DNA of 64,000 nt from a virus (lineage: Duplodnaviria; Heunggongvirae; Uroviricota; Caudoviricetes): IMG/VR virus record IMGVR_UViG_3300042906_000857, positions 3,297 to 67,296 of that record; one strand, given 5' to 3'. Made by a program: the position numbers and the translations under genes. Below are positions 8,417-22,089 of this stretch, piece after piece. The notes beneath the pieces are model-generated. The model ran no database searches. It worked only from the letters and a program-made list of their open reading frames with translations, and was not told the DNA's origin. The stretch's first letter is position 1. The number at the start of each line of letters is the position of its first letter.

Positions 8417-9934
8417 ATGGTTAATAAACTAAATTACCAACAGGCCAGAAGGGTTAGAGGCTCTAAATTTTCTAATCTATTTCTTGACCAGCTGGCGCAA
8501 CAGGATAGTGTAACATCTGCCATTGGTAAAACCATTTCATTAAAAACTCAAGCTAAGATTAAAGGCATCAAAGAGAGTTTTGATCCTTTGAATATGGTTA
8601 AGTTTTTGACGTTTGGTTCTAAACTTGGACCGGCTCTGTTTGGTAAGTTAACTGGTCGTAAACAAAAAGACATTGACTATTTTACTGGTCGTTCAAAAAG
8701 TGTTGTTGGTGGTATGAATACCGCAGACAAATTGAAAGGCACTGGCCAAGGTGGTGATTCGGCAGGTATTAATGAACAGTTATCAAAGATTTATTCTTTC
8801 TTAAAAACCAGTCGTGAAGATGATATTAAACTAAAAGAAAAATCTAAGAATTTTGAAGAAGAACTCATATCAGAGAAAAAACTCCGCCATGATGAATTAA
8901 TTGAAACATTAAATAAATTGATGAATAACATCCAAGGCGGCAAACCAACATTTGAAAAAGTTCAATCTGGTGAAAGTATGATTGACATGGTAAAACGTAT
9001 GATTGGTGATGCATTTGACAGCATTAAGGATTTGATGGCACTAAAAGACATACTCAAATCTGTTCCTTGGAGTAAACTATTGGGTGTTATGAGGTGGTTT
9101 GGTGGTCCAATAGGTATTGCATTGTTGGGTATAACATCCGCTGCCATGTTTTCTGAATGGTTGAAAGGTTTTATTGGTGAAAATGTTGTCAATAAAAATG
9201 TAATTACACCAGAAAAGGCAGTAGAATTATTGAGAACACCTGATGCATACCGTGCGATTGAGGAATATGGTGGTCGAGAAGCTTTACTTGAAATGGCCAA
9301 AACTGGTTATATTAAGGCCAAAGAAATATTGGAACGTGGTGATATCAAAGAAATAAACCAAGCTGGCGGCGTAGATTTCTTAAAGAAAGTTGAATCTCGT
9401 GGCGCAATTGATACTTCCAATATAGCGCCTGCGGCAGACCTATCACAGTTTAAACCAACTGGACCTAAACGTCCTGAAACCGGTGGTGTGGCTCTACCAG
9501 CTCAACAAAAAGAATGGGATAAAACTTGGAGTAAAGTTTATAATCCAAAAACAGGTAAGCGCCTAGACTTGGACATGGCATCAAGCATGTCCGAACAAGA
9601 TGTGAACAATGAAATGACCCGTATGAAAGGTCGTACACAATCAGTATCTCCTAGTGTTGTGGCACCAGAACCGGTCGTTCCAACACCGGCCGGAAAATTA
9701 ACACCTACGGTTACACCATCACCAGTATCAAGCTTAACAAATAACAATATCACTATGGCTATGGATGCTGCATACACAGGCGCCAAAGCTTCTAAACCTA
9801 TTGTTAACAATACAGTCAACAACACATCATCAAAGAATAAGGAAAGACCTGGTCTAAGACCTAGTCAAATATCGGTGCGTAATGATGAACCCACATTTAT
9901 GGGTTTGATTATTAACTCAACTAGAGTCGTATAA
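8417..9934 (+). CDS. Hypothetical protein (505 aa) with an internal hydrophobic segment; candidate tape-measure or internal protein
   Basis: ORF 4 nt after the previous gene, with a predicted TM segment GGPIGIALLGITSAAMF. Confidence 0.4.
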   Translation: MVNKLNYQQARRVRGSKFSNLFLDQLAQQDSVTSAIGKTISLKTQAKIKGIKESFDPLNMVKFLTFGSKLGPALFGKLTGRKQKDIDYFTGRSKSVVGGMNTADKLKGTGQGGDSAGINEQLSKIYSFLKTSREDDIKLKEKSKNFEEELISEKKLRHDELIETLNKLMNNIQGGKPTFEKVQSGESMIDMVKRMIGDAFDSIKDLMALKDILKSVPWSKLLGVMRWFGGPIGIALLGITSAAMFSEWLKGFIGENVVNKNVITPEKAVELLRTPDAYRAIEEYGGREALLEMAKTGYIKAKEILERGDIKEINQAGGVDFLKKVESRGAIDTSNIAPAADLSQFKPTGPKRPETGGVALPAQQKEWDKTWSKVYNPKTGKRLDLDMASSMSEQDVNNEMTRMKGRTQSVSPSVVAPEPVVPTPAGKLTPTVTPSPVSSLTNNNITMAMDAAYTGAKASKPIVNNTVNNTSSKNKERPGLRPSQISVRNDEPTFMGLIINSTRVV

Positions 9935-13168: not shown

Positions 13169-13873
13169 TTAGTCAAGTTGATTATACAACATCTGAATTG
13201 ACTTGTCAACTGTTTTTGTGGTAGTGTGGTAGTAATCAATCGCTTGCACTAGACCCTCAATGTGGTCTTTTGTTTTCTCTATGAAGATGAGTGGTTCAGA
13301 ATTTTCCACGGCCATGATGATTACTAATTCATCAATAGGTACACCAACCAATTCTTCATACATCAGTGCATATGCAGCTGTCTGCCAGAAATAGTCAGTA
13401 ATTTTATCCTTTGTCTTTGGTCTCTTTGAAGTCTTAAAATCGATCACCGACAGCTTACCTTCATACTCACCAATGCAATCTACTCGACCAGCAAGTCCGA
13501 GTTGGTAGGACCACAATCCGACCTCTTGGTAGTGTATGTTATTAATTCTGTTCAAGTATGGTTTGATTGATATGAACATCTCCTTGGCATCAGGCATAAC
13601 AATACCTGGTGGTTTAGGTTCATTGTTCAAGTAATACTCACACATAGTGTGCATATTGGTACCACGAGAGGTTGCTTGTTTTGATATCTTGTTAGCAACT
13701 TCTTCACCAACACGTTTGCGCCACTCCATGATAGATTGTTTCTTTTGAGCACCAACAACTGTGGTAACAGAAGGTAGTTTCTTACCATCTGGTGTAACGT
13801 AATATCTTTTCCCGTCAGGAAAAGTTTTGGATTCAATTTTAGGAATCTCTAGTGGTGGGCAATATTTAAACAT
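13169..13873 (-). CDS. PD-(D/E)xK nuclease, RecB/Cas4-like exonuclease family (no Cys cluster)
   Basis: VDCIGEYEGKLSVIDFKTSK (D...E.K) and a QxxxY-like WQTAAYALMY motif. Confidence 0.45.
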   Translation of the reverse strand: MFKYCPPLEIPKIESKTFPDGKRYYVTPDGKKLPSVTTVVGAQKKQSIMEWRKRVGEEVANKISKQATSRGTNMHTMCEYYLNNEPKPPGIVMPDAKEMFISIKPYLNRINNIHYQEVGLWSYQLGLAGRVDCIGEYEGKLSVIDFKTSKRPKTKDKITDYFWQTAAYALMYEELVGVPIDELVIIMAVENSEPLIFIEKTKDHIEGLVQAIDYYHTTTKTVDKSIQMLYNQLD

Positions 13874-14652
13874 TATTTTTTAGCTTTGGTGATGTATTTT
13901 GCACGAATTGTTTCAAAGAAATCTATATCATCATCTGTCAATTCAACAGCAGAAATTTTTTGTCTTTCTTCGAAAACAAAATTTTTATACATTTCAAAAT
14001 CACCTTCGTATTTAAAGTTTTTTGTAATTTTTTTTGTGTCATAGGCATCCATGATAATATGATATCTATCCTCATCAGAGTCATTTCGTATTTGATGCCA
14101 AAGGTTTGTCCAAAGAATAAAAACACCACCATCGGCCGGCATGTGTAAATTAAATCCTTCGCAAATGTGTATACTTTTTGGATTTGTCCACAATGGTATA
14201 TGAATACGTGCCATATATTCTTTTGTGTCGGCATCTTTGTGTACTAGACTTTTACATCCTGCTTTTAAACAAGTAACACGAACTCTACAAGGTTCGAAAC
14301 CCAAATCTCTTAAATCATCTATGACCTTTTTGATTTCACCAACACAGGCCTCTGTTTGATTTTTGTGTTCTATTCCGTATGCAATATTCATATGCTTATA
14401 GGCTTTGTAAATCAATTCTTGTGACGGAAAAAAAGATTCCATCGTATCACCACTTTCAAATTGAATTGATTCCCAACCATCTTTATATGTACCATCTGCA
14501 CTCAAGATTGACCAGCCACCAAAACCGTGATACTGTGGTGTTTCATATTCTTCACCTTGTATGACTTGGTCACCTAATGTAAAAACACTTTCACGAACTT
14601 CTTTTTTTAGTTTTTCAATATCAACTGTGTAATCTAATTTTTCAAAAAACAT
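13873..14652 (-). CDS. Hypothetical protein with a possible cupin/2OG-oxygenase-like His motif
   Basis: HKDAD...HIPLW...H pattern; weak. Confidence 0.3.
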   Translation of the reverse strand: MFFEKLDYTVDIEKLKKEVRESVFTLGDQVIQGEEYETPQYHGFGGWSILSADGTYKDGWESIQFESGDTMESFFPSQELIYKAYKHMNIAYGIEHKNQTEACVGEIKKVIDDLRDLGFEPCRVRVTCLKAGCKSLVHKDADTKEYMARIHIPLWTNPKSIHICEGFNLHMPADGGVFILWTNLWHQIRNDSDEDRYHIIMDAYDTKKITKNFKYEGDFEMYKNFVFEERQKISAVELTDDDIDFFETIRAKYITKAKK

Positions 14653-14653
14653 A

Positions 14654-15397
14654 TTATTCCTTTATTATAACATAAGTTGTTTGGTTCATGTCAATCGTTT
14701 TGTTTTCCAATAAGTATTTAAATTCTGTTTTACTTAGTTTTTTACTTACAACATTTGAACCTAATCTGATAGAATAAATTTCATCTTTTTTTGAAATCTT
14801 ATACAACAGGTAAAATTTATTCAACCAATGCATTTCCTTTTGATAACCTGGACCTAAACAAGATATCACATTCACAGCATGTTTTTTTATTGTAAAGTTG
14901 TAGTAATTAAAATAACTATTACCTTTTCCCATTATGTCAACGTGATGATAAAACAACTCTTTCCTATCAATCAAATCATATATCAATTGACCGGATGATT
15001 TAGTATCGATTACTGTGATATTTTTTAAATCATTAATCATGCGGCCACTTATGTAGTCCTCATAATAAGGACTTCCAGGTAATGCATAGGATAAGATGTG
15101 TTCAGGATTATTCTTATGATATTCATTCATTGTTGATATTAATTCGTCAAACACTTCACATGGTTGTCTACGAACTCCATTGTTATACCATATCGGCAAA
15201 TGTATAATTTCATGGACACTTTTAAATAATAAATCATATCCAACTTTAGCCAACAAATAATCATTATTGTTTTTTAATTGATTCTTATCAAATATACCCA
15301 AACAAAATATTGTGATCTTTTCTTTCTTATTTAAAAAATTGATTAATTCACTATTGATTGAATCTTTGGTAATTGGTAATCCCAATAAAGTAATCAT
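14654..15397 (-). CDS. Hypothetical protein (247 aa)
   Basis: ORF only. Confidence 0.35.
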   Translation of the reverse strand: MITLLGLPITKDSINSELINFLNKKEKITIFCLGIFDKNQLKNNNDYLLAKVGYDLLFKSVHEIIHLPIWYNNGVRRQPCEVFDELISTMNEYHKNNPEHILSYALPGSPYYEDYISGRMINDLKNITVIDTKSSGQLIYDLIDRKELFYHHVDIMGKGNSYFNYYNFTIKKHAVNVISCLGPGYQKEMHWLNKFYLLYKISKKDEIYSIRLGSNVVSKKLSKTEFKYLLENKTIDMNQTTYVIIKE

Positions 15398-15930
15398 ATA
15401 CTGCCGGTCTCTTTTAACATTTCCAAAACGGCCGAGTAAGGTTGATTGAATGTACCTAATGTAACAGCGGTTCTCAATTTAATGTTACCTTCAACACTGT
15501 GTATTTTTTTAACATCCAATACCCATATTTCAAAATCCTTAGCAACAAAACTGTCCAACTCTTTCAATTCATCTTTAGAGTAAATAAAACCATCAGTTTG
15601 ATTTGATATTTGAAAAGTTTTTGGATTGTCAACAGTAGGTTCATAAAACACGGTTCTTGCACCACCCGTTTCAATATAGAAGTTTAATGTTGTAATAATT
15701 TCTGTATCTGTGTGTGGTGGAATAGGACGATTAATAGTCATCAACGTTAAATGAAAATCATTCCAATATCTTCTAGGAATTACCGACATTAATGATTCAA
15801 CATCAGGACTCCATATCTTCTTATAATCAATACCTTGACCAGATTCACTTGTAAAAGTTTTAAGACCGTCTGTTACAAGATATAATGGTTTTTTAAAGGT
15901 CTCATTCAATTTACAAAACATCATTTCCAA
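15394..15930 (-). CDS. Hypothetical protein, possible cupin/2OG-oxygenase-like (HTD...H)
   Basis: PPHTDTE...KIHSVEG spacing; weak. Confidence 0.3.
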   Translation of the reverse strand: MEMMFCKLNETFKKPLYLVTDGLKTFTSESGQGIDYKKIWSPDVESLMSVIPRRYWNDFHLTLMTINRPIPPHTDTEIITTLNFYIETGGARTVFYEPTVDNPKTFQISNQTDGFIYSKDELKELDSFVAKDFEIWVLDVKKIHSVEGNIKLRTAVTLGTFNQPYSAVLEMLKETGSI

Positions 15931-16613
15931 TCTTTAATTTTGGCCATGCGGCCGGCCCACGATTTAAGAATAACTGTACCATCAGCATTCTTGTTTACTA
16001 CTTTTCTTATGTCAGTTGTTAATGATATGCGTAAATCGTCAGATTTATTTTCATCAACGCCGTGTAAAACATAAGATGGGAAAAAAATTAATCGACCTTC
16101 AACTGGTTTATATCTACGTTCACGTAAGAATGGATTACTGCTCAATTTATTTTTTGACCAATCAATAGCTTTTGATGTATCAAACAATACCAGGTCGCCA
16201 CAACCATCTTTTACTTTAATATAATAGGTTGCAGCAATAGCGGATTCGGTGTGGCCATGAACTTCTAAAATTTCACCCGGTTCTCGGACATTTACCCAAC
16301 CAAATATGTGTTCACATCCAGCCAAGTTTAACATTCTAACTTGTGGTATTTCTCTTATGATTTGTTTGGATACGATATTTAATATTTCTGATTTAAGTAT
16401 ATCCAGATTGGGTTTGCTGTAGTCCCATATACTATCTTTTGGATAATTATCTTTACCTGTTACTATTTCTTTACCAATTGTGTAAATCTCATCCAAAAGA
16501 TTTTCGTTGAATTCTTCATCAAATTCAGTTTGAACTTCCCAAACTGGACTTTTCCAGAACTCATTTTGTGCATTTTGATACCAATGATATCTGTCTCTAT
16601 CTAATTTTGTCAT
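15921..16613 (-). CDS. 2OG-Fe(II) oxygenase family protein (2OG-FeII_Oxy_5-like)
   Basis: EVHGHTESAIAATYYIKV and the later YVLHGV match the H.H....S.V.YL / second-His pattern of cyanophage-type 2OG-Fe(II) oxygenases. Confidence 0.45.
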   Translation of the reverse strand: MTKLDRDRYHWYQNAQNEFWKSPVWEVQTEFDEEFNENLLDEIYTIGKEIVTGKDNYPKDSIWDYSKPNLDILKSEILNIVSKQIIREIPQVRMLNLAGCEHIFGWVNVREPGEILEVHGHTESAIAATYYIKVKDGCGDLVLFDTSKAIDWSKNKLSSNPFLRERRYKPVEGRLIFFPSYVLHGVDENKSDDLRISLTTDIRKVVNKNADGTVILKSWAGRMAKIKDWK

Positions 16614-16622
16614 AATAATAAT

Positions 16623-16952
16623 CTATTCTTGTCTTTTCTTCCAAGACAAATAACTGTCATACCATTCATCATTTTCATGAATGGTATTAATATCGAATAG
16701 TAAACCTGGAGCTCTGTTTGAATTTTTGAAGATTAAATTAATGTCATCACTCATTTCACCAAATACTTTCTTGATAATATTACCATGTTTTTCTAACATG
16801 GTAAAATATAAATATTTTTCTTCATCTGTGAGTGTGAGTAACTTATTGTGGAACTCCTCAACTAAATTAAAAATGTATTCAGCTGGTCTATAGATTATAT
16901 TATTTCCATCTGTGGATTTTATTGTTTCTAGTGTTGTTTGGGATGGTTTCAT
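16623..16952 (-). CDS. Hypothetical protein (109 aa)
   Basis: ORF only. Confidence 0.3.
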   Translation of the reverse strand: MKPSQTTLETIKSTDGNNIIYRPAEYIFNLVEEFHNKLLTLTDEEKYLYFTMLEKHGNIIKKVFGEMSDDINLIFKNSNRAPGLLFDINTIHENDEWYDSYLSWKKRQE

Positions 16953-17251
16953 TTTTTTAACCAGTCAGAATATTCTTTAACAAACTCATCATTAATATTT
17001 TCTCTTCCAGATTTGTCGAGTACTAAAAATGGAGCATTCTTATACAATTTTTCTCCGTAGATTTTATCTATAATATTAGCATAATCTTTCTGCAATTGAA
17101 ACCATTCCTCTCTTTCAGTTTGAGATAAGTTGATAAAATTTTGATAATATGTTGTATAACAAAAGTGTTTTATATGATCGTCCTCATATTTTATATGCAA
17201 TTCATCAATAACTAAAATTGGTGGTGATTTAGAGTATATTGGAAGCACCAT
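16949..17251 (-). CDS. Hypothetical protein (100 aa)
   Basis: ORF only; 4-nt overlaps on both sides. Confidence 0.3.
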   Translation of the reverse strand: MVLPIYSKSPPILVIDELHIKYEDDHIKHFCYTTYYQNFINLSQTEREEWFQLQKDYANIIDKIYGEKLYKNAPFLVLDKSGRENINDEFVKEYSDWLKK

Positions 17252-18144
17252 TATAATTTAGCTCCAACTTTTTTAGGGATAAAATTTTCGATAAATGCAC
17301 CAATTTTAACAATCAATTTGAAACCAATAAAAATGCATACGAGAGATGCACCTTTGAGAAATCCTGGTTCTTTTTTGCTTGGGCCAAACCAACGGTTATA
17401 AACACCGATAATTTTACAAATTGGTGTACCAAAGCCCATAATCAATTTTCCAGTCAAACTACCTGTTTCCTTTTCGCCCACAATATAGGCCATTTCTTCA
17501 GCCCATGGTGTTGCAATATCATATGCCCAATTAATTGCCCAATTTTTGATAGCAATAGTATGTTCTTCGTCCGTCATCCAAGGCATCATTTTAGGTCCAT
17601 TACCTTCCATCCAAGAAACGACAATTTCAGCCCAAGCTTTATAACCATTGTATATATCTGGATGAGTTTCAATCAAACGTTTACCAAAAGCTTGGTCAGC
17701 CTCAAATATATTTTGTTTCATCATACCCAAACTGAATAATTTAGTACAAATAATCTTAGAACAGTTACAATTACAGTTACAGTTATACGAGAAGCAATTG
17801 GCGTTGTTTGTGCAATTATAAGTGGGTCTAGCACCAGCGCAATTACCAGACTGTAACCAAGCTTGAGAATCACAATTTGCACAATTTATGGCAGTACAAT
17901 TTTGTGATTGGTAGCACTGGATATTACCACAGTTACAATTTACACCACCAGCGTTTCCGTTATTGCAATTGCCTGCTTGATTTTGTTGATAGTAATTTTT
18001 ACCATAAAAATCGACCAAGTCAGGCAAACCACCTTTTTGACCAGGTTTTATATAACCATCCAAAAAAGTTAAACTGCCGTTGCCGGTGCCTATTGTAGAT
18101 TTAACGTCATTAATTGATATTGGTCCAGATGATGGTGTTGGCAT
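17251..18144 (-). CDS. Asn/Cys-rich (NC)n low-complexity protein with a hydrophobic C-terminal domain; candidate substrate of the adjacent radical SAM enzyme
   Basis: Residues ~60-135 contain ~22 Cys, mostly as N-C dipeptides (NCNNGNAGGVNCNCGNIQC...NCNCNCNC). The C-terminal 160 aa have TM-like segments. Confidence 0.5.
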   Translation of the reverse strand: MPTPSSGPISINDVKSTIGTGNGSLTFLDGYIKPGQKGGLPDLVDFYGKNYYQQNQAGNCNNGNAGGVNCNCGNIQCYQSQNCTAINCANCDSQAWLQSGNCAGARPTYNCTNNANCFSYNCNCNCNCSKIICTKLFSLGMMKQNIFEADQAFGKRLIETHPDIYNGYKAWAEIVVSWMEGNGPKMMPWMTDEEHTIAIKNWAINWAYDIATPWAEEMAYIVGEKETGSLTGKLIMGFGTPICKIIGVYNRWFGPSKKEPGFLKGASLVCIFIGFKLIVKIGAFIENFIPKKVGAKL

Positions 18145-18176
18145 TTTTATTTTTTAAAAAAAGGTTGTTACAATAT

Positions 18177-19634
18177 TTATGTGTTTTCCACACGAGATTT
18201 ACCATACACATCAACATCATCAATTTTATCAATAATTTCACTCAAAACTTTGATCGGTATCACTTTTCTTTGTTTTTCTTCTTCGTGTGTAAAAATTGTT
18301 CCGAAAACGTCTTGTCTTTCAAGTGGTAGAGTATCACTTTTAATTAAAGTGGGAACGTATCCACCAGTAATCATTACGATTGCCAAATTAAATAACACAA
18401 CATTGTCTGAATATGCGTTGGCACATGAAATGTCCCAGTATTTTTTATCCAAGAACATACATGAACCTTTGCATACGTGAAGTACAGGACATTCCGGACA
18501 CTCTTTACGGTTAGACCAATGTGTGACAGATTTTAATTCAACATTTTCATAATCATCAAGTGTGCCTCCGCCGTGGGATTCACCGTTATTGGAAATCTCA
18601 AGTGAACTAACATTTTGACAAGTCATAACGTTACCACGCAAATCAACTGATATGGTGTGTTCATCATCCATACCACATTTTTGTCCCAAATATTTGGAAT
18701 CACTGTGGCTTAAAATACTTCTAGTTAGACCATTAATTTTACCAAGTTGATTTACAAAACCAAGTTTACCTTGAGCTGCATATAATTCTCCGAAAGCCTG
18801 TTTTCTAAATTCAAAATGATCTTTTTTTGTAATCAGTGAACTGGAAACACCATCTTCATCATAAGCATCAACAATTGATCCTTCACCAAGAACCACATCT
18901 TCATCACCTGTTAGGTTAACAAACCAATCATAAATTGATTTTCTACTTTGATTTTTTGAATTCAACATAGAATTGAAACTAAAAGATTTACCTAAACGGC
19001 GCATCATTCTATAAAAACCTAGAATTTGTTCTTTCTTTTCTGGATCATCAAATGGATCTGGTCCACGAACTGATTGTCCTGGTCCATCATGTGATATTGC
19101 TACAGCAAAGTCCATCATCATCAACCAGTCAATAATTTCATCGGTTAAAATGGAACCATTTGTGATGATACTAAATCGAGGTTTTGTTTTCCACTCACTG
19201 AATTTTTCTGCAAGTATTTCAGCCAAAGGTTTCATTGTTTTCCAATAAACCAATGGTTCACCACCCCAAAATTCAATCTTTAAACCAACATCTTCGTCAA
19301 ACTTTAATACTTCCAATTTTTCCATAAATGCGTCAATGTCTTTTTTGGAAGTTTCTGGTTGACGTTCAACGAATTTCTGTGAACAGTAATCACACGAGTA
19401 ATTACAACTCAATCCCATCTGGATTTTAAGAATGCTAATTAATTTAGACTTCTTGAGTGGATGATCTTTATCAAAAGATTTGTGGGGGTTTTCAAATTGT
19501 TTTGGTACATCAGCAATATCTGAATACTCAAAAACATTACCATCAGCATCTTTTAAGATGTTGGCATGATTATCATAGTAAAAAACCTTCTTATCACCAT
19601 CTTCAAATCTTTGTGCTTGTATTTCAAAAATCAT
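18177..19634 (-). CDS. Radical SAM protein with a SPASM/twitch-type C-terminal Cys cluster (anSME/peptide-maturase-like) and a ~100-aa N-terminal extension
   Basis: CNYSCDYC (CxxxCxxC) at residue ~97, GGEPL-like WGGEPLV, and C-terminal CPECPVLHVCKGSC. Confidence 0.7.
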   Translation of the reverse strand: MIFEIQAQRFEDGDKKVFYYDNHANILKDADGNVFEYSDIADVPKQFENPHKSFDKDHPLKKSKLISILKIQMGLSCNYSCDYCSQKFVERQPETSKKDIDAFMEKLEVLKFDEDVGLKIEFWGGEPLVYWKTMKPLAEILAEKFSEWKTKPRFSIITNGSILTDEIIDWLMMMDFAVAISHDGPGQSVRGPDPFDDPEKKEQILGFYRMMRRLGKSFSFNSMLNSKNQSRKSIYDWFVNLTGDEDVVLGEGSIVDAYDEDGVSSSLITKKDHFEFRKQAFGELYAAQGKLGFVNQLGKINGLTRSILSHSDSKYLGQKCGMDDEHTISVDLRGNVMTCQNVSSLEISNNGESHGGGTLDDYENVELKSVTHWSNRKECPECPVLHVCKGSCMFLDKKYWDISCANAYSDNVVLFNLAIVMITGGYVPTLIKSDTLPLERQDVFGTIFTHEEEKQRKVIPIKVLSEIIDKIDDVDVYGKSRVENT

Positions 19635-21474: not shown

Positions 21475-22089
21475 CTAGTTTACAATCTTTCCAGCCATTA
21501 CGTTAAATGATATGGAAATTCGGTTGTCGGTGGAATAATTACGTTCTACCGTGTGTTGTAACCAAGAGTCAAACAATAACATTAGACCTTTTTGTGGAGT
21601 AATCCGTATGTCATCATAGTTGTAGTTGTTTTCGTTTACCTTCAACCTACTAAAAAAGGTTGAGTGAGCTCTACGCAATTCCAATGGAGTATGAAATACA
21701 ATATCACCACACTTTTCAGGTGTTTGTAAATATACAACACCACTAACTAATGCACCGTAGTGGTCGTGCCTGAAAAAATGTGATTGTGGTTTGTTATACT
21801 GTAACCAAGATGAAATTTCAATGTGACTATCTTTATCATAACCAAGTAACTCCATAAATGTTCTGGAGTTAATGGTTATTTCATTAAGTAAATCATAGGC
21901 CTTTAGTGTGCCTAACAAATCTTTAACATCATAAAACGTTGTCACCAAATCTCCGGGTAGAGAATTGGCTAAGAGTTTTTTATCCTCAACAAACGTATTA
22001 ACTAATGATAATACATCGTCTGTAATGCCATCATCAATTTTGGTGTTAATTATAGGTATTGGAAATACGTGAGTTAAATTCAAACTCAT
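21475..22089 (-). CDS. 2OG-Fe(II) oxygenase family protein (2OG-FeII_Oxy_5-like)
   Basis: RHDHYGALVSGVVYLQ and the later WLQHTVERN; same signature as 15921..16613. Confidence 0.45.
   Translation of the reverse strand: MSLNLTHVFPIPIINTKIDDGITDDVLSLVNTFVEDKKLLANSLPGDLVTTFYDVKDLLGTLKAYDLLNEITINSRTFMELLGYDKDSHIEISSWLQYNKPQSHFFRHDHYGALVSGVVYLQTPEKCGDIVFHTPLELRRAHSTFFSRLKVNENNYNYDDIRITPQKGLMLLFDSWLQHTVERNYSTDNRISISFNVMAGKIVN

What the first reader, a model, noticed from the sequence alone, without database searches (positions are those of the whole stretch)
17251..19634. Radical SAM-SPASM maturase-like enzyme directly upstream of a protein with an extreme (Asn-Cys)n segment: a possible phage-encoded peptide-crosslinking (RiPP-like) pair
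Gene 18177..19634 has the CxxxCxxC radical SAM motif, a C-terminal SPASM-type Cys cluster (CPECPVLHVCKGSC) and an unusual ~95-residue N-terminal extension that could serve as a substrate-recognition domain. The next gene is 33 nt downstream (17251..18144). Residues ~60-135 of its product carry about 22 cysteines, almost all as N-C dipeptides (NCNCNCNC at the end). A hydrophobic C-terminal domain follows. SPASM enzymes typically install thioether or carbon-carbon crosslinks on Cys-rich peptide substrates (sactipeptides, ranthipeptides) or mature Cys/Ser to formylglycine. An NC-repeat substrate fused to a membrane domain is not a described class. The enzyme could instead act on a host target, and the NC-rich protein could be a metal-binding protein.
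Basis: partly seen in the sequence, partly recalled or inferred. Interest (0 to 1): 0.8.

Follow-up and report, generated by a model that had tools for sequence, protein, structure and literature searches.

The report
Radical-SAM maturase for phage Asn-Cys tails
A phage radical-SAM enzyme is found almost invariably, in hundreds of unrelated phages and prophages, next to proteins (mostly tail fibres) that end in a run of Asn-Cys dipeptides, which points to an undescribed enzymatic modification of the tips phages use to contact their hosts.

Summary
Both genes exist as described, though some counts were off: 17 Cys rather than about 22, and an N-terminal extension of about 70 residues rather than 95. 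The enzyme is a genuine radical SAM/SPASM protein with exactly 3+7 Cys. It matches no named subfamily and is not anSME.

The pairing is very unlikely to be chance:
- 79 of 80 related viral contigs keep the two genes within 1.5 kb.
- Among distant relatives (37-56% identity) in Burkholderiales-type prophages, 50 of 51 informative loci have a tail-fibre gene ending in (Asn/Asp/Ala-Cys)n upstream of the enzyme.
- Starting instead from the NCNCNCNC DNA pattern, all 50 informative C-terminal-tail ORFs have the enzyme nearby. None of 12 ORFs with an internal repeat does.

After the repeat comes either nothing, a self-cleaving S74 or Hint domain, or, in this window, a helical domain with a tail-anchor-like end. 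The repeat is therefore the constant element. A phrog_81 2OG-Fe(II) oxygenase belongs to the same module.

The most likely mechanism is thioether cross-linking of the Cys-rich fibre tip, possibly with Asn/Asp hydroxylation. This is inferred, not shown. I found no publication describing the module.

The parts
18177..19634 (-). Radical SAM/SPASM enzyme, 485 aa. Radical SAM cluster at C77/C81/C84; 7-Cys SPASM motif at C320, C339, C379, C382, C388, C392, C404; small N-terminal beta-sheet (residues 2-29); extra C-terminal strands (426-484).
   Evidence: Pfam PF04055. NCBIfam TIGR04085 above cut-off, with best partial hits PapB, geopeptide and QhpD all far below their equivalog cut-offs. phrog_1802 at 6e-59. 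AF2 pLDDT 81, pTM 0.81. Foldseek neighbours TigE, CteB, anSME, ChlB, SuiB. Invariant Cys in A1.
17251..18144 (-). NC protein, 297 aa, the predicted substrate. It has three modules (the next three rows).
   Evidence: ORF. About 545 homologous clusters, all unnamed and without Pfam hits. Next to the rSAM in 79 of 80 viral loci.
17977..18144 (-). N-terminal module (residues 1-56), family consensus MTLPsSGxIsxSDINxEIG...L.FLN...FYG. It is shared by all NC-core variants and by some other phage proteins.
   Evidence: Alignment A2. An HMM of this module hits the variants in L075, L081 and L088, and also a Vibrio phage BUCT194 ORF located after a tail-fibre gene (29 bits) and the nt-1 FG-GAP protein (21 bits). 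No decoy window ORF matched.
17755..17976 (-). Cys-rich core (residues 57-130): 14 Cys, 13 of them as Asn-Cys, ending in NCNCNCNC. The hexanucleotide array lies at 17761-17785. This is the predicted site of modification.
   Evidence: Invariant or near-invariant Cys at 60, 70, 77, 83, 88, 91, 102, 111, 126, 128. AF2 gives no confident fold here, pLDDT 30-43.
17251..17754 (-). C-terminal helical domain (residues 131-297) starting at the invariant junction S-K-I-I-C and ending in a hydrophobic, tail-anchor-like helix. It is an accessory, interchangeable module of unknown fold.
   Evidence: AF2 pLDDT 76-89, all helices. No PDB fold match with E<0.001. About 33% identity to the C-terminus of SynMITS9220M01 gp028. 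Marine relatives follow Gly/Pro linkers through the same [KS]IIC junction and end in about 20 hydrophobic residues followed by basic ones. Replaced by nothing, S74 or Hint in other loci.
15921..16613 (-). 2OG-Fe(II) oxygenase (PF13759, phrog_81), the probable third member of the module.
   Evidence: Pfam 65 bits and phrog_81 at 2.8e-26. Syntenic in 69 of 80 viral loci and still adjacent in the rearranged loci L080 and L081. A phrog_81-like 2OG gene lies between fibre and rSAM in 51 of 63 prophage loci. An HMM of the prophage 2OG genes hits this ORF at E 1.8e-14.
15394..15930 (-). Conserved 178-aa neighbour of unknown family, with an HxD...H-like signature (PPHTDTE...KIHSV). Possibly another dioxygenase.
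   Evidence: Syntenic in 68 of 80 loci. No Pfam or PHROG hit. The motif was read from the sequence, so the function is inference only.
13873..14652 (-). Asp/Asn beta-hydroxylase-like protein (PF05118), a conserved member of the downstream block.
   Evidence: Pfam 28 bits against a cut-off of 22.6. Syntenic in 65 of 80 loci. No evidence outside the T4-like lineage.

Best explanation
Genes 18177-19634 and 17251-18144 are the enzyme and substrate of a widespread phage protein-maturation module that I did not find described in the literature.

The module has three members:
- an RS-SPASM enzyme (phrog_1802 family);
- usually a phrog_81 2OG-Fe(II) oxygenase;
- a target protein carrying a run of (Asn/Asp/Ala-Cys)n.

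In siphovirus-type prophages and in phages JWF and RSP15 the target is a tail fibre whose mature C-terminus, the distal tip, is the repeat. In this T4-like myovirus lineage it is a small protein made of an N-terminal adaptor-like module, a Cys core and a removable or accessory C-terminal domain.

Proposed mechanism (inferred):
1. The enzyme binds a substrate Cys thiolate at the open coordination site of auxiliary cluster I.
2. The 5'-deoxyadenosyl radical abstracts a hydrogen from the C-alpha or C-beta of a nearby Asn or Asp.
3. An S-C thioether forms (sactionine or ranthionine type), and this repeats along the run.
4. The oxygenase(s) may hydroxylate Asn or Asp.

The result would be a redox-insensitive, covalently stapled Cys knot that can be built in the reducing cytoplasm, where disulfides cannot form. 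It would stabilise or shape a virion-exposed tip.

What is shown: the enzyme class, the repeat, and the near-obligate two-way genetic linkage across distant lineages. What is inferred: that the repeat is the substrate, the thioether chemistry, the oxygenase's target, and the virion-tip role of the window protein itself.
For: Linkage:
- 69 of 80 viral loci have the NC gene directly downstream of the rSAM. Five more have it within 1.5 kb and five have it directly upstream. Only L078 lacks it.
- In GTDB genomes, 50 of 51 loci with at least 4.6 kb of upstream DNA have a same-strand ORF ending in ([NDA]C)n. The background is 0 in about 0.9 million aa outside the family.
- Reverse search: all 50 informative C-terminal NCNCNCNC ORFs have the rSAM nearby. 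The other 11 have at most 2.7 kb of downstream DNA. None of 12 internal-repeat ORFs has it.

The repeat is the common denominator:
- The same N-terminal module and core end at the repeat in L080, L081, L087 and L088.
- The repeat is followed by Peptidase_S74 in L075 and L283, and by Hint in JWF gp028, L093 and L095.
- Predicted S74 cleavage in L075 leaves ...CDCFW, which matches the natural ends ...CDCW and ...CACW.

The carriers are tail fibres: they hit tail-fibre PHROGs and lie between a J-like central fibre gene and the lysis genes.

Enzyme:
- SPASM domain above cut-off, nearest families PapB, geopeptide and QhpD.
- Nearest structures are TigE and CteB.
- Only 7 auxiliary Cys are conserved, as in CteB. 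The extra Aux-I Cys of anSME aligns to a variable H/D/N position.

Other support:
- AF2 cannot fold the Cys core on its own.
- The 2OG oxygenase is conserved in two independent genomic contexts.
- PapB-type Cys-to-Asp/Glu and Cys-to-C-terminal-residue thioethers are established chemistry (PMC12373016).
Against: - There is no biochemical or mass-spectrometric evidence for any modification.
- Homology does not fix the chemistry. The nearest structures catalyse cyclopropanation (TigE), thioether formation (CteB), formylglycine formation (anSME) and Lys-Trp cross-linking (SuiB). All equivalog scores are far below their cut-offs.
- No canonical RRE is predicted, so how the enzyme recognises its substrate is unknown.
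- In this window the pair lies in the auxiliary, hyperplastic region and not in a tail module.
- The window protein has no fibre shaft, and its C-domain looks tail-anchored to a membrane. Its presence in the virion is therefore uncertain.
- JWF-type loci lack a recognisable 2OG gene, so the oxygenase is not obligatory.
- Much of the synteny within the T4-like set reflects shared ancestry, and many of those loci are near-duplicates (56 distinct partner sequences among 76).
Confidence: 0.6

Rival explanations
1. The (N-C)n run is a metal- or Fe-S-binding ladder at the axis of a trimeric fibre tip. It would be analogous to the HxH repeats that coordinate iron in the T4 gp37 needle or zinc in gp12. 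On this view the radical SAM enzyme and the oxygenase do something else, such as modifying other residues or a host target.
For: - The alternating xCxCxC pattern would place all Cys on one face of a beta-strand.
- The carriers are tail fibres, and the repeat is at the distal end.
- AF2 gives no monomer fold for the core, which would also fit a metal- or oligomer-dependent fold.
- Metal-binding fibre tips are established for T4 (own knowledge; Thomassen 2003 is cited within PMC2938197).
Against: - This does not explain the near-obligate, two-way linkage between C-terminal NC tails and this particular RS-SPASM clade.
- SPASM enzymes are not known as metallochaperones.
- Internal NC repeats in giant-virus proteins exist without the enzyme, so the enzyme tracks the tail context rather than Cys richness as such.
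Confidence: 0.13
2. The enzyme works like anSME. It oxidises the Cys residues of the repeat to C-alpha-formylglycine, or to another oxidised or eliminated form, giving a reactive aldehyde-rich tip rather than cross-links.
For: - anSME is a close structural neighbour (TM-score to target 0.60-0.64).
- Like this enzyme, anSME lacks an RRE and acts on full-length proteins (own knowledge of anSME).
- The JWF record originally annotated its homologue as 'anaerobic sulfatase-maturating enzyme'.
Against: - TIGR03942 scores 46 bits against a cut-off of 349.
- The family conserves 7 auxiliary Cys, not the 8 that fully ligate both anSME clusters.
- The substrates have no C/S-x-P/A-x-R motif. The window's CAGAR does not fit it and is not conserved.
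- No sulfatase gene is nearby.
Confidence: 0.1
3. The small NC proteins are true RiPP precursors, with the N-terminal module as leader and the Cys core as the product. They would be cleaved and released as a free bioactive peptide such as a bacteriocin, signal or metallophore, and would not be virion components.
For: - The short variants of 131-156 aa in L080, L081, L087 and L088 resemble a leader plus core encoded next to a maturase.
- The nearest NCBIfam families are RiPP maturases.
Against: - In most lineages the same tail sits on full-length tail fibres of 200-620 aa inside tail modules.
- No leader peptidase or exporter gene accompanies the pair.
- No RRE is predicted.
- The 'leader' module also heads unrelated phage proteins, one of them encoded directly after a tail-fibre gene.
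Confidence: 0.07
4. The adjacency is incidental. The rSAM would act on a host protein, on DNA or on a small molecule, and the NC protein would be an unrelated neighbour.
For: - Phages do carry rSAM enzymes for other purposes, such as DNA hypermodification (M6 gp53; PMC8989533).
- The window region is an auxiliary-gene hotspot.
Against: - The linkage survives changes of gene order, of carrier protein, of phage morphotype and of host phylum, and it holds in both search directions.
- The DNA-modifying rSAM is SPL-like, has no SPASM domain and sits in a nucleotide-metabolism cluster.
Confidence: 0.03

Closest known systems
RS-SPASM thioether-forming peptide maturases: CteB (SCIFF), PapB (ranthipeptide freyrasin), QhpD (QhpC subunit of quinohemoprotein amine dehydrogenase)
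   Same: - Radical SAM core plus a 7-Cys SPASM domain.
- A Cys-rich substrate encoded nearby.
- These are the best NCBIfam partial hits (PapB 78 bits, QhpD 67 bits).
- CteB is among the nearest solved structures.
- The Aux-I region is CteB-like, with a single Cys.
- QhpD, like this system, cross-links Cys to Asp or Glu within a protein subunit rather than a free peptide (own knowledge).
   Different: - Every equivalog score is 4- to 10-fold below its cut-off.
- No RRE is predicted.
- The substrates are phage tail fibres or adhesin-like proteins carrying an (N/D/A-C)n dipeptide repeat at the C-terminus.
- A 2OG-Fe(II) oxygenase is co-conserved.
- The context is phage or prophage tail modules.
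Anaerobic sulfatase-maturating enzyme (anSME)
   Same: - RS-SPASM fold without an RRE.
- It modifies Cys in a folded-protein substrate.
- Close structural neighbour.
   Different: - 46 bits against a cut-off of 349.
- 7 rather than 8 auxiliary Cys ligands.
- No CxPxR or CxAxR motif and no sulfatase gene.
Metal-binding tips of T4 fibres (gp37 HxH iron needle, gp12 zinc site) and self-cleaving fibre-end modules (Peptidase_S74 intramolecular chaperone; Hint/BIL domains)
   Same: - An alternating x-ligand-x-ligand repeat at the distal end of a trimeric fibre.
- In L075 and L283 the repeat is followed by S74, and in JWF, L093 and L095 by Hint. These are the removable C-terminal modules known from other fibres.
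   Different: - The ligand is Cys rather than His.
- The repeat is genetically tied to a radical SAM enzyme and a dioxygenase, which has not been reported for T4-type metal sites.
Tandem 2OG-Fe(II) dioxygenase arrays of cyanomyoviruses (Syn9 gp49-gp58; Iyer et al. 2010, PMC2938197)
   Same: - The window carries a similar array of dioxygenase genes (13873-16613 and 21475-22089).
- That paper predicted peptide- or protein-modifying roles, and noted bacterial dioxygenase operons containing T4 short-tail-fibre-like 'tail-collar' proteins.
   Different: - That paper proposed secondary-metabolite synthesis for the phage arrays.
- It did not link them to an rSAM enzyme or to a Cys-rich target.

Membership tests
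Radical SAM superfamily (PF04055) | CxxxCxxC motif ligating the SAM-binding [4Fe-4S] cluster, within a partial TIM-barrel core | tested here: met
   C77-x3-C81-x2-C84 is invariant in A1 and A3. Pfam scores 43.7 bits against a cut-off of 29.5. The AF2 model superposes on rSAM structures.
SPASM subfamily (TIGR04085) | C-terminal 7-Cys motif, Cx9-15Gx4C ... Cx2Cx5Cx3C ... C, for two auxiliary [4Fe-4S] clusters | tested here: met
   C320-x13-G-x4-C339, C379xxC382x5C388x3C392 and C404 are all invariant. TIGR04085 scores 32.2 bits against a cut-off of 27. This is SPASM, not twitch.
anSME (TIGR03942) | Score above the equivalog cut-off | tested here: not met
   46.4 bits against a cut-off of 349.45.
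anSME (TIGR03942) | Both auxiliary clusters fully Cys-ligated (an eighth Cys in the CGMNGTC segment) | tested here: not met
   That Cys aligns to H326, which varies as H/D/N in the family. The protein has only 10 Cys in total.
anSME (TIGR03942) | Substrate motif C/S-x-P/A-x-R in a sulfatase | tested here: not met
   The NC proteins and fibres have no conserved motif of this kind, and there is no sulfatase gene nearby.
Ranthipeptide maturase PapB (NF047865), QhpD (TIGR03906), SCIFF maturase (TIGR03974) | Score above the equivalog cut-off | tested here: not met
   78.4 against 340, 66.8 against 453 and 51.4 against 425. These are nearest neighbours, not family membership.
Ranthipeptide maturase PapB (NF047865), QhpD (TIGR03906), SCIFF maturase (TIGR03974) | N-terminal RRE (PqqD-like winged helix) that binds the leader peptide | tested here: not met
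   AF2 predicts residues 2-29 as three beta-strands (pLDDT above 90) with no helices before the rSAM core. This is a prediction only.
Ranthipeptide maturase PapB (NF047865), QhpD (TIGR03906), SCIFF maturase (TIGR03974) | Formation of Cys S-C(alpha/beta/gamma) thioethers | not testable with these tools
   This needs mass spectrometry or NMR of the co-expressed product.
RiPP (ribosomally synthesised and post-translationally modified peptide) | Precursor with a leader and a core, with the leader removed to release a small peptide | tested here: inconclusive
   The short variants (131-156 aa) have a conserved N-terminal module plus a core. Most carriers, however, are full-length tail fibres, and no peptidase or exporter gene is linked. 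The system is best called RiPP-like protein maturation.
Phage tail fibre / receptor-binding protein (the NC-tailed carriers) | Homology to tail-fibre families and a position in the tail module | tested here: met
   This holds for the prophage, JWF and RSP15 carriers: they hit tail-fibre PHROGs, JWF gp028 has a Shufflon_N hit (Pfam), and they lie between a J-like fibre gene and the lysis genes. It does not hold for the window protein itself, which has no fibre homology and lies in the auxiliary region.
2OG-Fe(II) oxygenase (PF13759, phrog_81) as a module member | Family match plus conserved linkage to the pair | tested here: met
   Window gene 15921-16613 scores 65 bits in Pfam and 2.8e-26 against phrog_81. 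It is linked in 69 of 80 viral loci and a homologue is present in 51 of 63 prophage loci. The cross-HMM gives E 1.8e-14.

The most novel reading that the evidence does not exclude
Phage receptor-binding tips are enzymatically matured by radical chemistry. A dedicated RS-SPASM enzyme, with a 2OG dioxygenase, would convert a C-terminal (Asn/Asp-Cys)n tail of trimeric tail fibres into a ladder of thioether cross-links, possibly between chains. This covalent tip structure would replace the metal-His needles of T4-type fibres and would be required for fibre stability or host recognition. It would be the first radical-SAM post-translational modification of a virion protein and a new RiPP-like substrate class.
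Probability: 0.35. Interest if true: 0.9.

Novelty: new variant of a known kind. Interest (0 to 1): 0.8.

Why it matters
Phage tail-fibre tips decide host range, and they are the parts engineered for phage therapy and diagnostics. As far as I know, the known maturation steps for virion proteins (chaperones, auto-proteolysis, metal binding, HK97-type auto-cross-links, glycosylation) include no radical-SAM chemistry.

If this module really modifies the fibre tip:
- It adds a new layer to virion assembly. Heterologous expression of such fibres would fail without the enzyme.
- It defines a large new substrate class for RS-SPASM enzymes: 2,953 enzyme clusters, abundant in freshwater phages and in Burkholderiales prophages.
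- It gives the many unexplained 2OG-Fe(II) oxygenases of T4-like aquatic phages a concrete, testable protein target.
- It offers a naturally evolved way to build disulfide-like staples in the reducing cytoplasm.

Cultured phages (Achromobacter phage JWF, Ralstonia phage RSP15) carry the module, so it can be tested directly.

Tried and rejected
- Megablast of the region against cultured phages found nothing. The window is only about 36% identical at the protein level to cyanomyoviruses.
- Pfam, NCBIfam and PHROGs gave nothing for the NC protein, for gene A or for the JWF gp029-like protein.
- Foldseek of the NC-protein model against the PDB gave no hit with E<0.001, so the C-domain fold stays unassigned. 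AF2 did not fold the Cys core.
- The C-domain was found in only one cultured phage. The deep search returned 16 marine relatives. These showed the conserved [KS]IIC junction and the tail-anchor-like end, but no function.
- Scans for sigma-70 promoters and terminators, and for the T4 late promoter TATAAATA, were at or below chance and say nothing about expression timing.
- Ten literature searches found no description of the module. The rSAM of cyanophage S-SCSM2R (PMC12801897) and the thymidine-hypermodification rSAM (PMC8989533) are different enzymes in different contexts.
- Rejected: DNA-modification rSAM (SPL-like, no SPASM), anSME membership, canonical RRE-dependent RiPP maturase, chance adjacency.
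- Boundary of the association: the 28%-identical rSAM of jumbo phage RP12 has no NC partner.
- Correction: an earlier count said 72 of 80 loci have the NC gene directly downstream. A recount gives 69.


Full report
**Observation**

The two ORFs are real. Gene 18177-19634 (-) encodes 485 aa and gene 17251-18144 (-) encodes 297 aa, with 32 nt between them.

The first protein has the radical SAM motif C77-x3-C81-x2-C84 and a complete 7-Cys SPASM motif (C320-x13-G-x4-C339; C379xxC382x5C388x3C392; C404). It contains exactly these ten cysteines.

The second protein has 17 Cys, not about 22. Fifteen lie in residues 60-133 and 13 are Asn-Cys dipeptides, ending in NCNCNCNC. That run is encoded by a 4.2-copy hexanucleotide array at 17761-17785. 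None of 200,000 shuffles of the core reaches 13 N-C dipeptides.

The enzyme's N-terminal extension is about 70 residues rather than about 95.

**What the enzyme is**

- Pfam Radical_SAM and the NCBIfam SPASM domain TIGR04085 are both above their cut-offs.
- The best family hits are PapB (78 bits), the geopeptide maturase, QhpD, CcpM and Nif11-type maturases. All are far below their equivalog cut-offs. anSME scores 46 against 349.
- It belongs to phrog_1802.
- By sequence, the closest solved proteins are TigE (8VPO, a cyclopropylglycine synthase; PMC10878394) and CteB.
- An AF2 model (pLDDT 81, pTM 0.81) finds TigE, CteB, anSME, ChlB and SuiB as structural neighbours.
- The N-terminal extension is predicted as a three-stranded beta-sheet with no helices, so it is not a canonical RRE.
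- The extra Aux-I cysteine of anSME aligns to a variable H/D/N position, as in CteB. This is consistent with an open cluster site for a substrate thiolate. That reading rests on my knowledge of the CteB structure.

The class, an RS-SPASM peptide- or protein-modifying enzyme, is firm. The chemistry is not determined by homology.

**Linkage in close relatives**

I fetched 80 IMG/VR contigs encoding homologues that are 56-81% identical. The NC gene lies:
- directly downstream (3-67 nt) in 69;
- 0.7-1.5 kb downstream in 5;
- directly upstream in 5;
- nowhere in the available DNA in only one, L078.

The NC protein family has about 545 clusters, none named. The rSAM family has 2,953.

The partner has three modules:
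- a conserved N-terminal module, MTLPsSGxIsxSDINxEIG...;
- the Cys core;
- an invariant junction SKIIC leading into a C-terminal domain of about 165 aa.

The C-terminal domain is dispensable or replaceable:
- L080 and L081 encode proteins of 143-156 aa that stop right after the repeat (...CACACW*).
- L075 replaces the domain with a Peptidase_S74 auto-cleaving chaperone that starts immediately after ...NCNCDCNCDCFW.

**Linkage in distant relatives**

Full-length homologues (42-46% identical) in Ralstonia phage RSP15 and Achromobacter phage JWF lie inside tail-fibre modules. JWF fibre gp028 contains NCNCDCNCNCSC immediately before a Hint domain. The RSP15 side fibre ends in ...NTNCQCGN*.

A profile scan of one genome per GTDB species returned 80 loci (37-69% identical), mostly prophages of Limnohabitans, Polynucleobacter and Burkholderia.
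- In 50 of the 51 loci with at least 4.6 kb of upstream DNA, a same-strand ORF 0.4-4.5 kb upstream ends in ([N/D/A]-C)n. Examples are NCNCDCNCC* and NCNCNCACDCCC*. The x position is N 204 times, D 41 times and A 19 times.
- In L093 and L095 the repeat is followed by a Hint domain instead.
- In 916,396 aa of all other six-frame ORFs, the motif occurs only in three homologues of the NC protein.
- The single exception, L098, is a degraded locus in which the fibre gene abuts the rSAM.

These carriers hit tail-fibre PHROGs and sit between a J-like central fibre gene and the lysis genes.

**Reverse test**

I searched viral contigs for DNA encoding NCNCNCNC and obtained 119 loci.
- 61 ORFs have the repeat within 12 aa of the C-terminus. 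Fifty of these have the rSAM in the same locus.
- The other 11 all have at most 2.7 kb of downstream sequence, which is too little to reach the enzyme.
- 12 ORFs have an internal repeat, mostly on giant-virus contigs. None has the rSAM.

The linkage is therefore specific to C-terminal NC tails and holds in both directions. It ends somewhere between 37% and 28% enzyme identity: jumbo phage RP12 has related rSAM genes next to virion proteins but no NC protein.

**A third member**

In the T4-like loci three genes follow the pair:
- a phrog_81 / PF13759 2OG-Fe(II) oxygenase (window 15921-16613), in 69 of 80;
- a 178-aa protein with an HxD...H-like signature (15394-15930), in 68 of 80;
- a PF05118 Asp/Asn-hydroxylase-like protein (13873-14652), in 65 of 80.

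The upstream PhoH gene is conserved in only 25. In the rearranged loci L080 and L081 the oxygenase stays adjacent.

Independently, the commonest prophage gene order is fibre(NC), gene A, 2OG, rSAM. At least one phrog_81-like oxygenase lies between fibre and rSAM in 51 of 63 loci. An HMM built from those oxygenases picks window gene 15921-16613 at E 1.8e-14. Gene A (about 275 aa; RSP15 ORF047 is a member) and the JWF gp029-like protein have no counterpart in the window.

**The window protein itself**

AF2 with 75 sequences gives no confident fold for the Cys core (pLDDT 30-43). It gives a confident all-helical C-domain (pLDDT 76-89) that has no PDB fold match.

The C-domain is about 33% identical to the C-terminus of SynMITS9220M01 gp028. 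That protein is Gly-rich and is encoded next to a 'fiber protein' gene. Marine relatives of the C-domain always follow a Gly/Pro linker through the same [KS]IIC junction. They end in about 20 hydrophobic residues followed by basic ones, which looks like a tail anchor. The window's last helix has KD-19 = 2.2.

The N-terminal module is detectable at the start of a Vibrio phage BUCT194 ORF located directly after a tail-fibre gene, and of the nt-1 FG-GAP protein (29 and 21 bits).

The window is a T4-like myovirus only about 36% identical to cyanomyoviruses. The pair lies in the auxiliary region, between the gp32-like SSB gene and PhoH. Whether this particular protein ends up in the virion, or whether its C-domain is cleaved off as S74 and Hint domains are, remains open.

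**Mechanism**

Shown:
- the enzyme class;
- the repeat;
- the two-way linkage across morphotypes and host phyla;
- the repeat as the only constant feature of the partners;
- co-conservation of a dioxygenase.

Inferred:
- The repeat is the substrate.
- The enzyme installs S-C thioethers between Cys and neighbouring Asn/Asp or the C-terminal residue. PapB and QhpD give precedent (PMC12373016).
- The oxygenase(s) hydroxylate Asn or Asp.
- The product is a redox-insensitive staple at the fibre tip, made in a cytoplasm where disulfides cannot form.

My confidence is about 0.8 that this is an enzyme-substrate module, about 0.4 that the chemistry is thioether formation, and about 0.4 that the window protein is part of the virion. 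The rivals (metal ladder, formylglycine formation, free RiPP, coincidence) are listed with the tests that would decide between them.

**Novelty**

Ten full-text searches found no description of this module. Iyer et al. 2010 noted dioxygenase arrays in cyanophages, and dioxygenase operons with tail-collar-like proteins in bacteria, but no rSAM or Cys-rich target.

I rate it a new variant of a known kind: an RS-SPASM maturase with a Cys-rich substrate, but with a new substrate class (phage fibre tips with Asn-Cys tails) and a new partner enzyme. The library lacks most subscription journals, so prior description elsewhere cannot be excluded.

Noticed in passing
window 13169-16613 and 21475-22089 (- strand): A run of dioxygenase-type genes lies around the pair. 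It includes PF05118 (13873-14652), PF13759 (15921-16613), an HxD..H-like ORF (15394-15930) and a second phrog_81-like ORF (21475-22089). It resembles the tandem dioxygenase arrays described for cyanophage Syn9. ORFs 13169-13873 and 14654-15397 have no family hit, and 14654-15397 has no homologue in any of the 80 related loci.
   Followed up: partly
window 16623-16952 and 16949-17251 (- strand): Two small ORFs (109 and 100 aa) lie between the NC gene and the oxygenase. They look like paralogues of each other (...EEKYLYFTMLEKHGNIIKKVFGE and ...EREEWFQLQKDYANIIDKIYGE). They are found in only 3 and 19 of the 80 related loci, so this is a variable insert.
   Followed up: partly
L166 (Ralstonia jumbo phage RP12) 4499-11224: Three or four radical SAM genes (ORF076, 077, 079, and possibly 078 with a CxxxCxxC-like motif) sit next to virion structural genes. 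A 125-aa His/Tyr-rich ORF074 (…HTHNYYDYYW…SHTHYSPDGSY) lies just upstream. This may be a different virion-protein or peptide maturation system.
   Followed up: no
L001 (Synechococcus phage SynMITS9220M01) 4669-6519: gp028 contains a run of about 34 Pro followed by 8 Arg, between a Gly-rich domain and the helical C-domain shared with the window protein. This phage has no homologue of the rSAM.
   Followed up: partly
L171, L192, L195, L260, L262, L280, L284 (mostly GVMAG giant-virus contigs): These ORFs contain internal NCNCNCNC runs within otherwise unrelated, often Cys-rich proteins, with no rSAM nearby. Asn-Cys repeats therefore also arise independently in giant viruses.
   Followed up: no
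L107 7854-9062; L239, L266, L282 (about 134-aa ORFs): In L107 the N-terminal module and NC core are fused to the C-terminus of a 402-aa protein. In L239, L266 and L282 a 134-aa protein has (Q/G/S-x-C) repeats (QSCQGCQTCQGCQS...) before NCNCNCSNCDC. It lies near an rSAM that is only about 25% identical, which may be a sister system.
   Followed up: no
window 6896-8413 and 8417-9934 (+ strand): Two adjacent ORFs of identical length (505 aa) lie on the opposite strand to most genes. Only the first hits a PHROG of unknown function. They may be a tandem duplication.
   Followed up: no
L164 3501-4709 (Vibrio phage nt-1) and L165 3501-4013 (Vibrio phage BUCT194): The N-terminal signature M-[TA]-L-[PQ]-[ST]-x-G-P-I-S...D[IV]...ELG...SL-x-D-[FL]-[YR]-GK heads unrelated phage proteins (FG-GAP repeats; a small ORF after a tail-fibre gene). 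It may be a general docking module for phage accessory proteins.
   Followed up: partly
L098 7604-10240: This is a degraded prophage copy. The fibre gene runs almost directly into the rSAM, gene A and the 2OG gene are missing, and the fibre C-terminus is scrambled and lacks the NC tail.
   Followed up: yes
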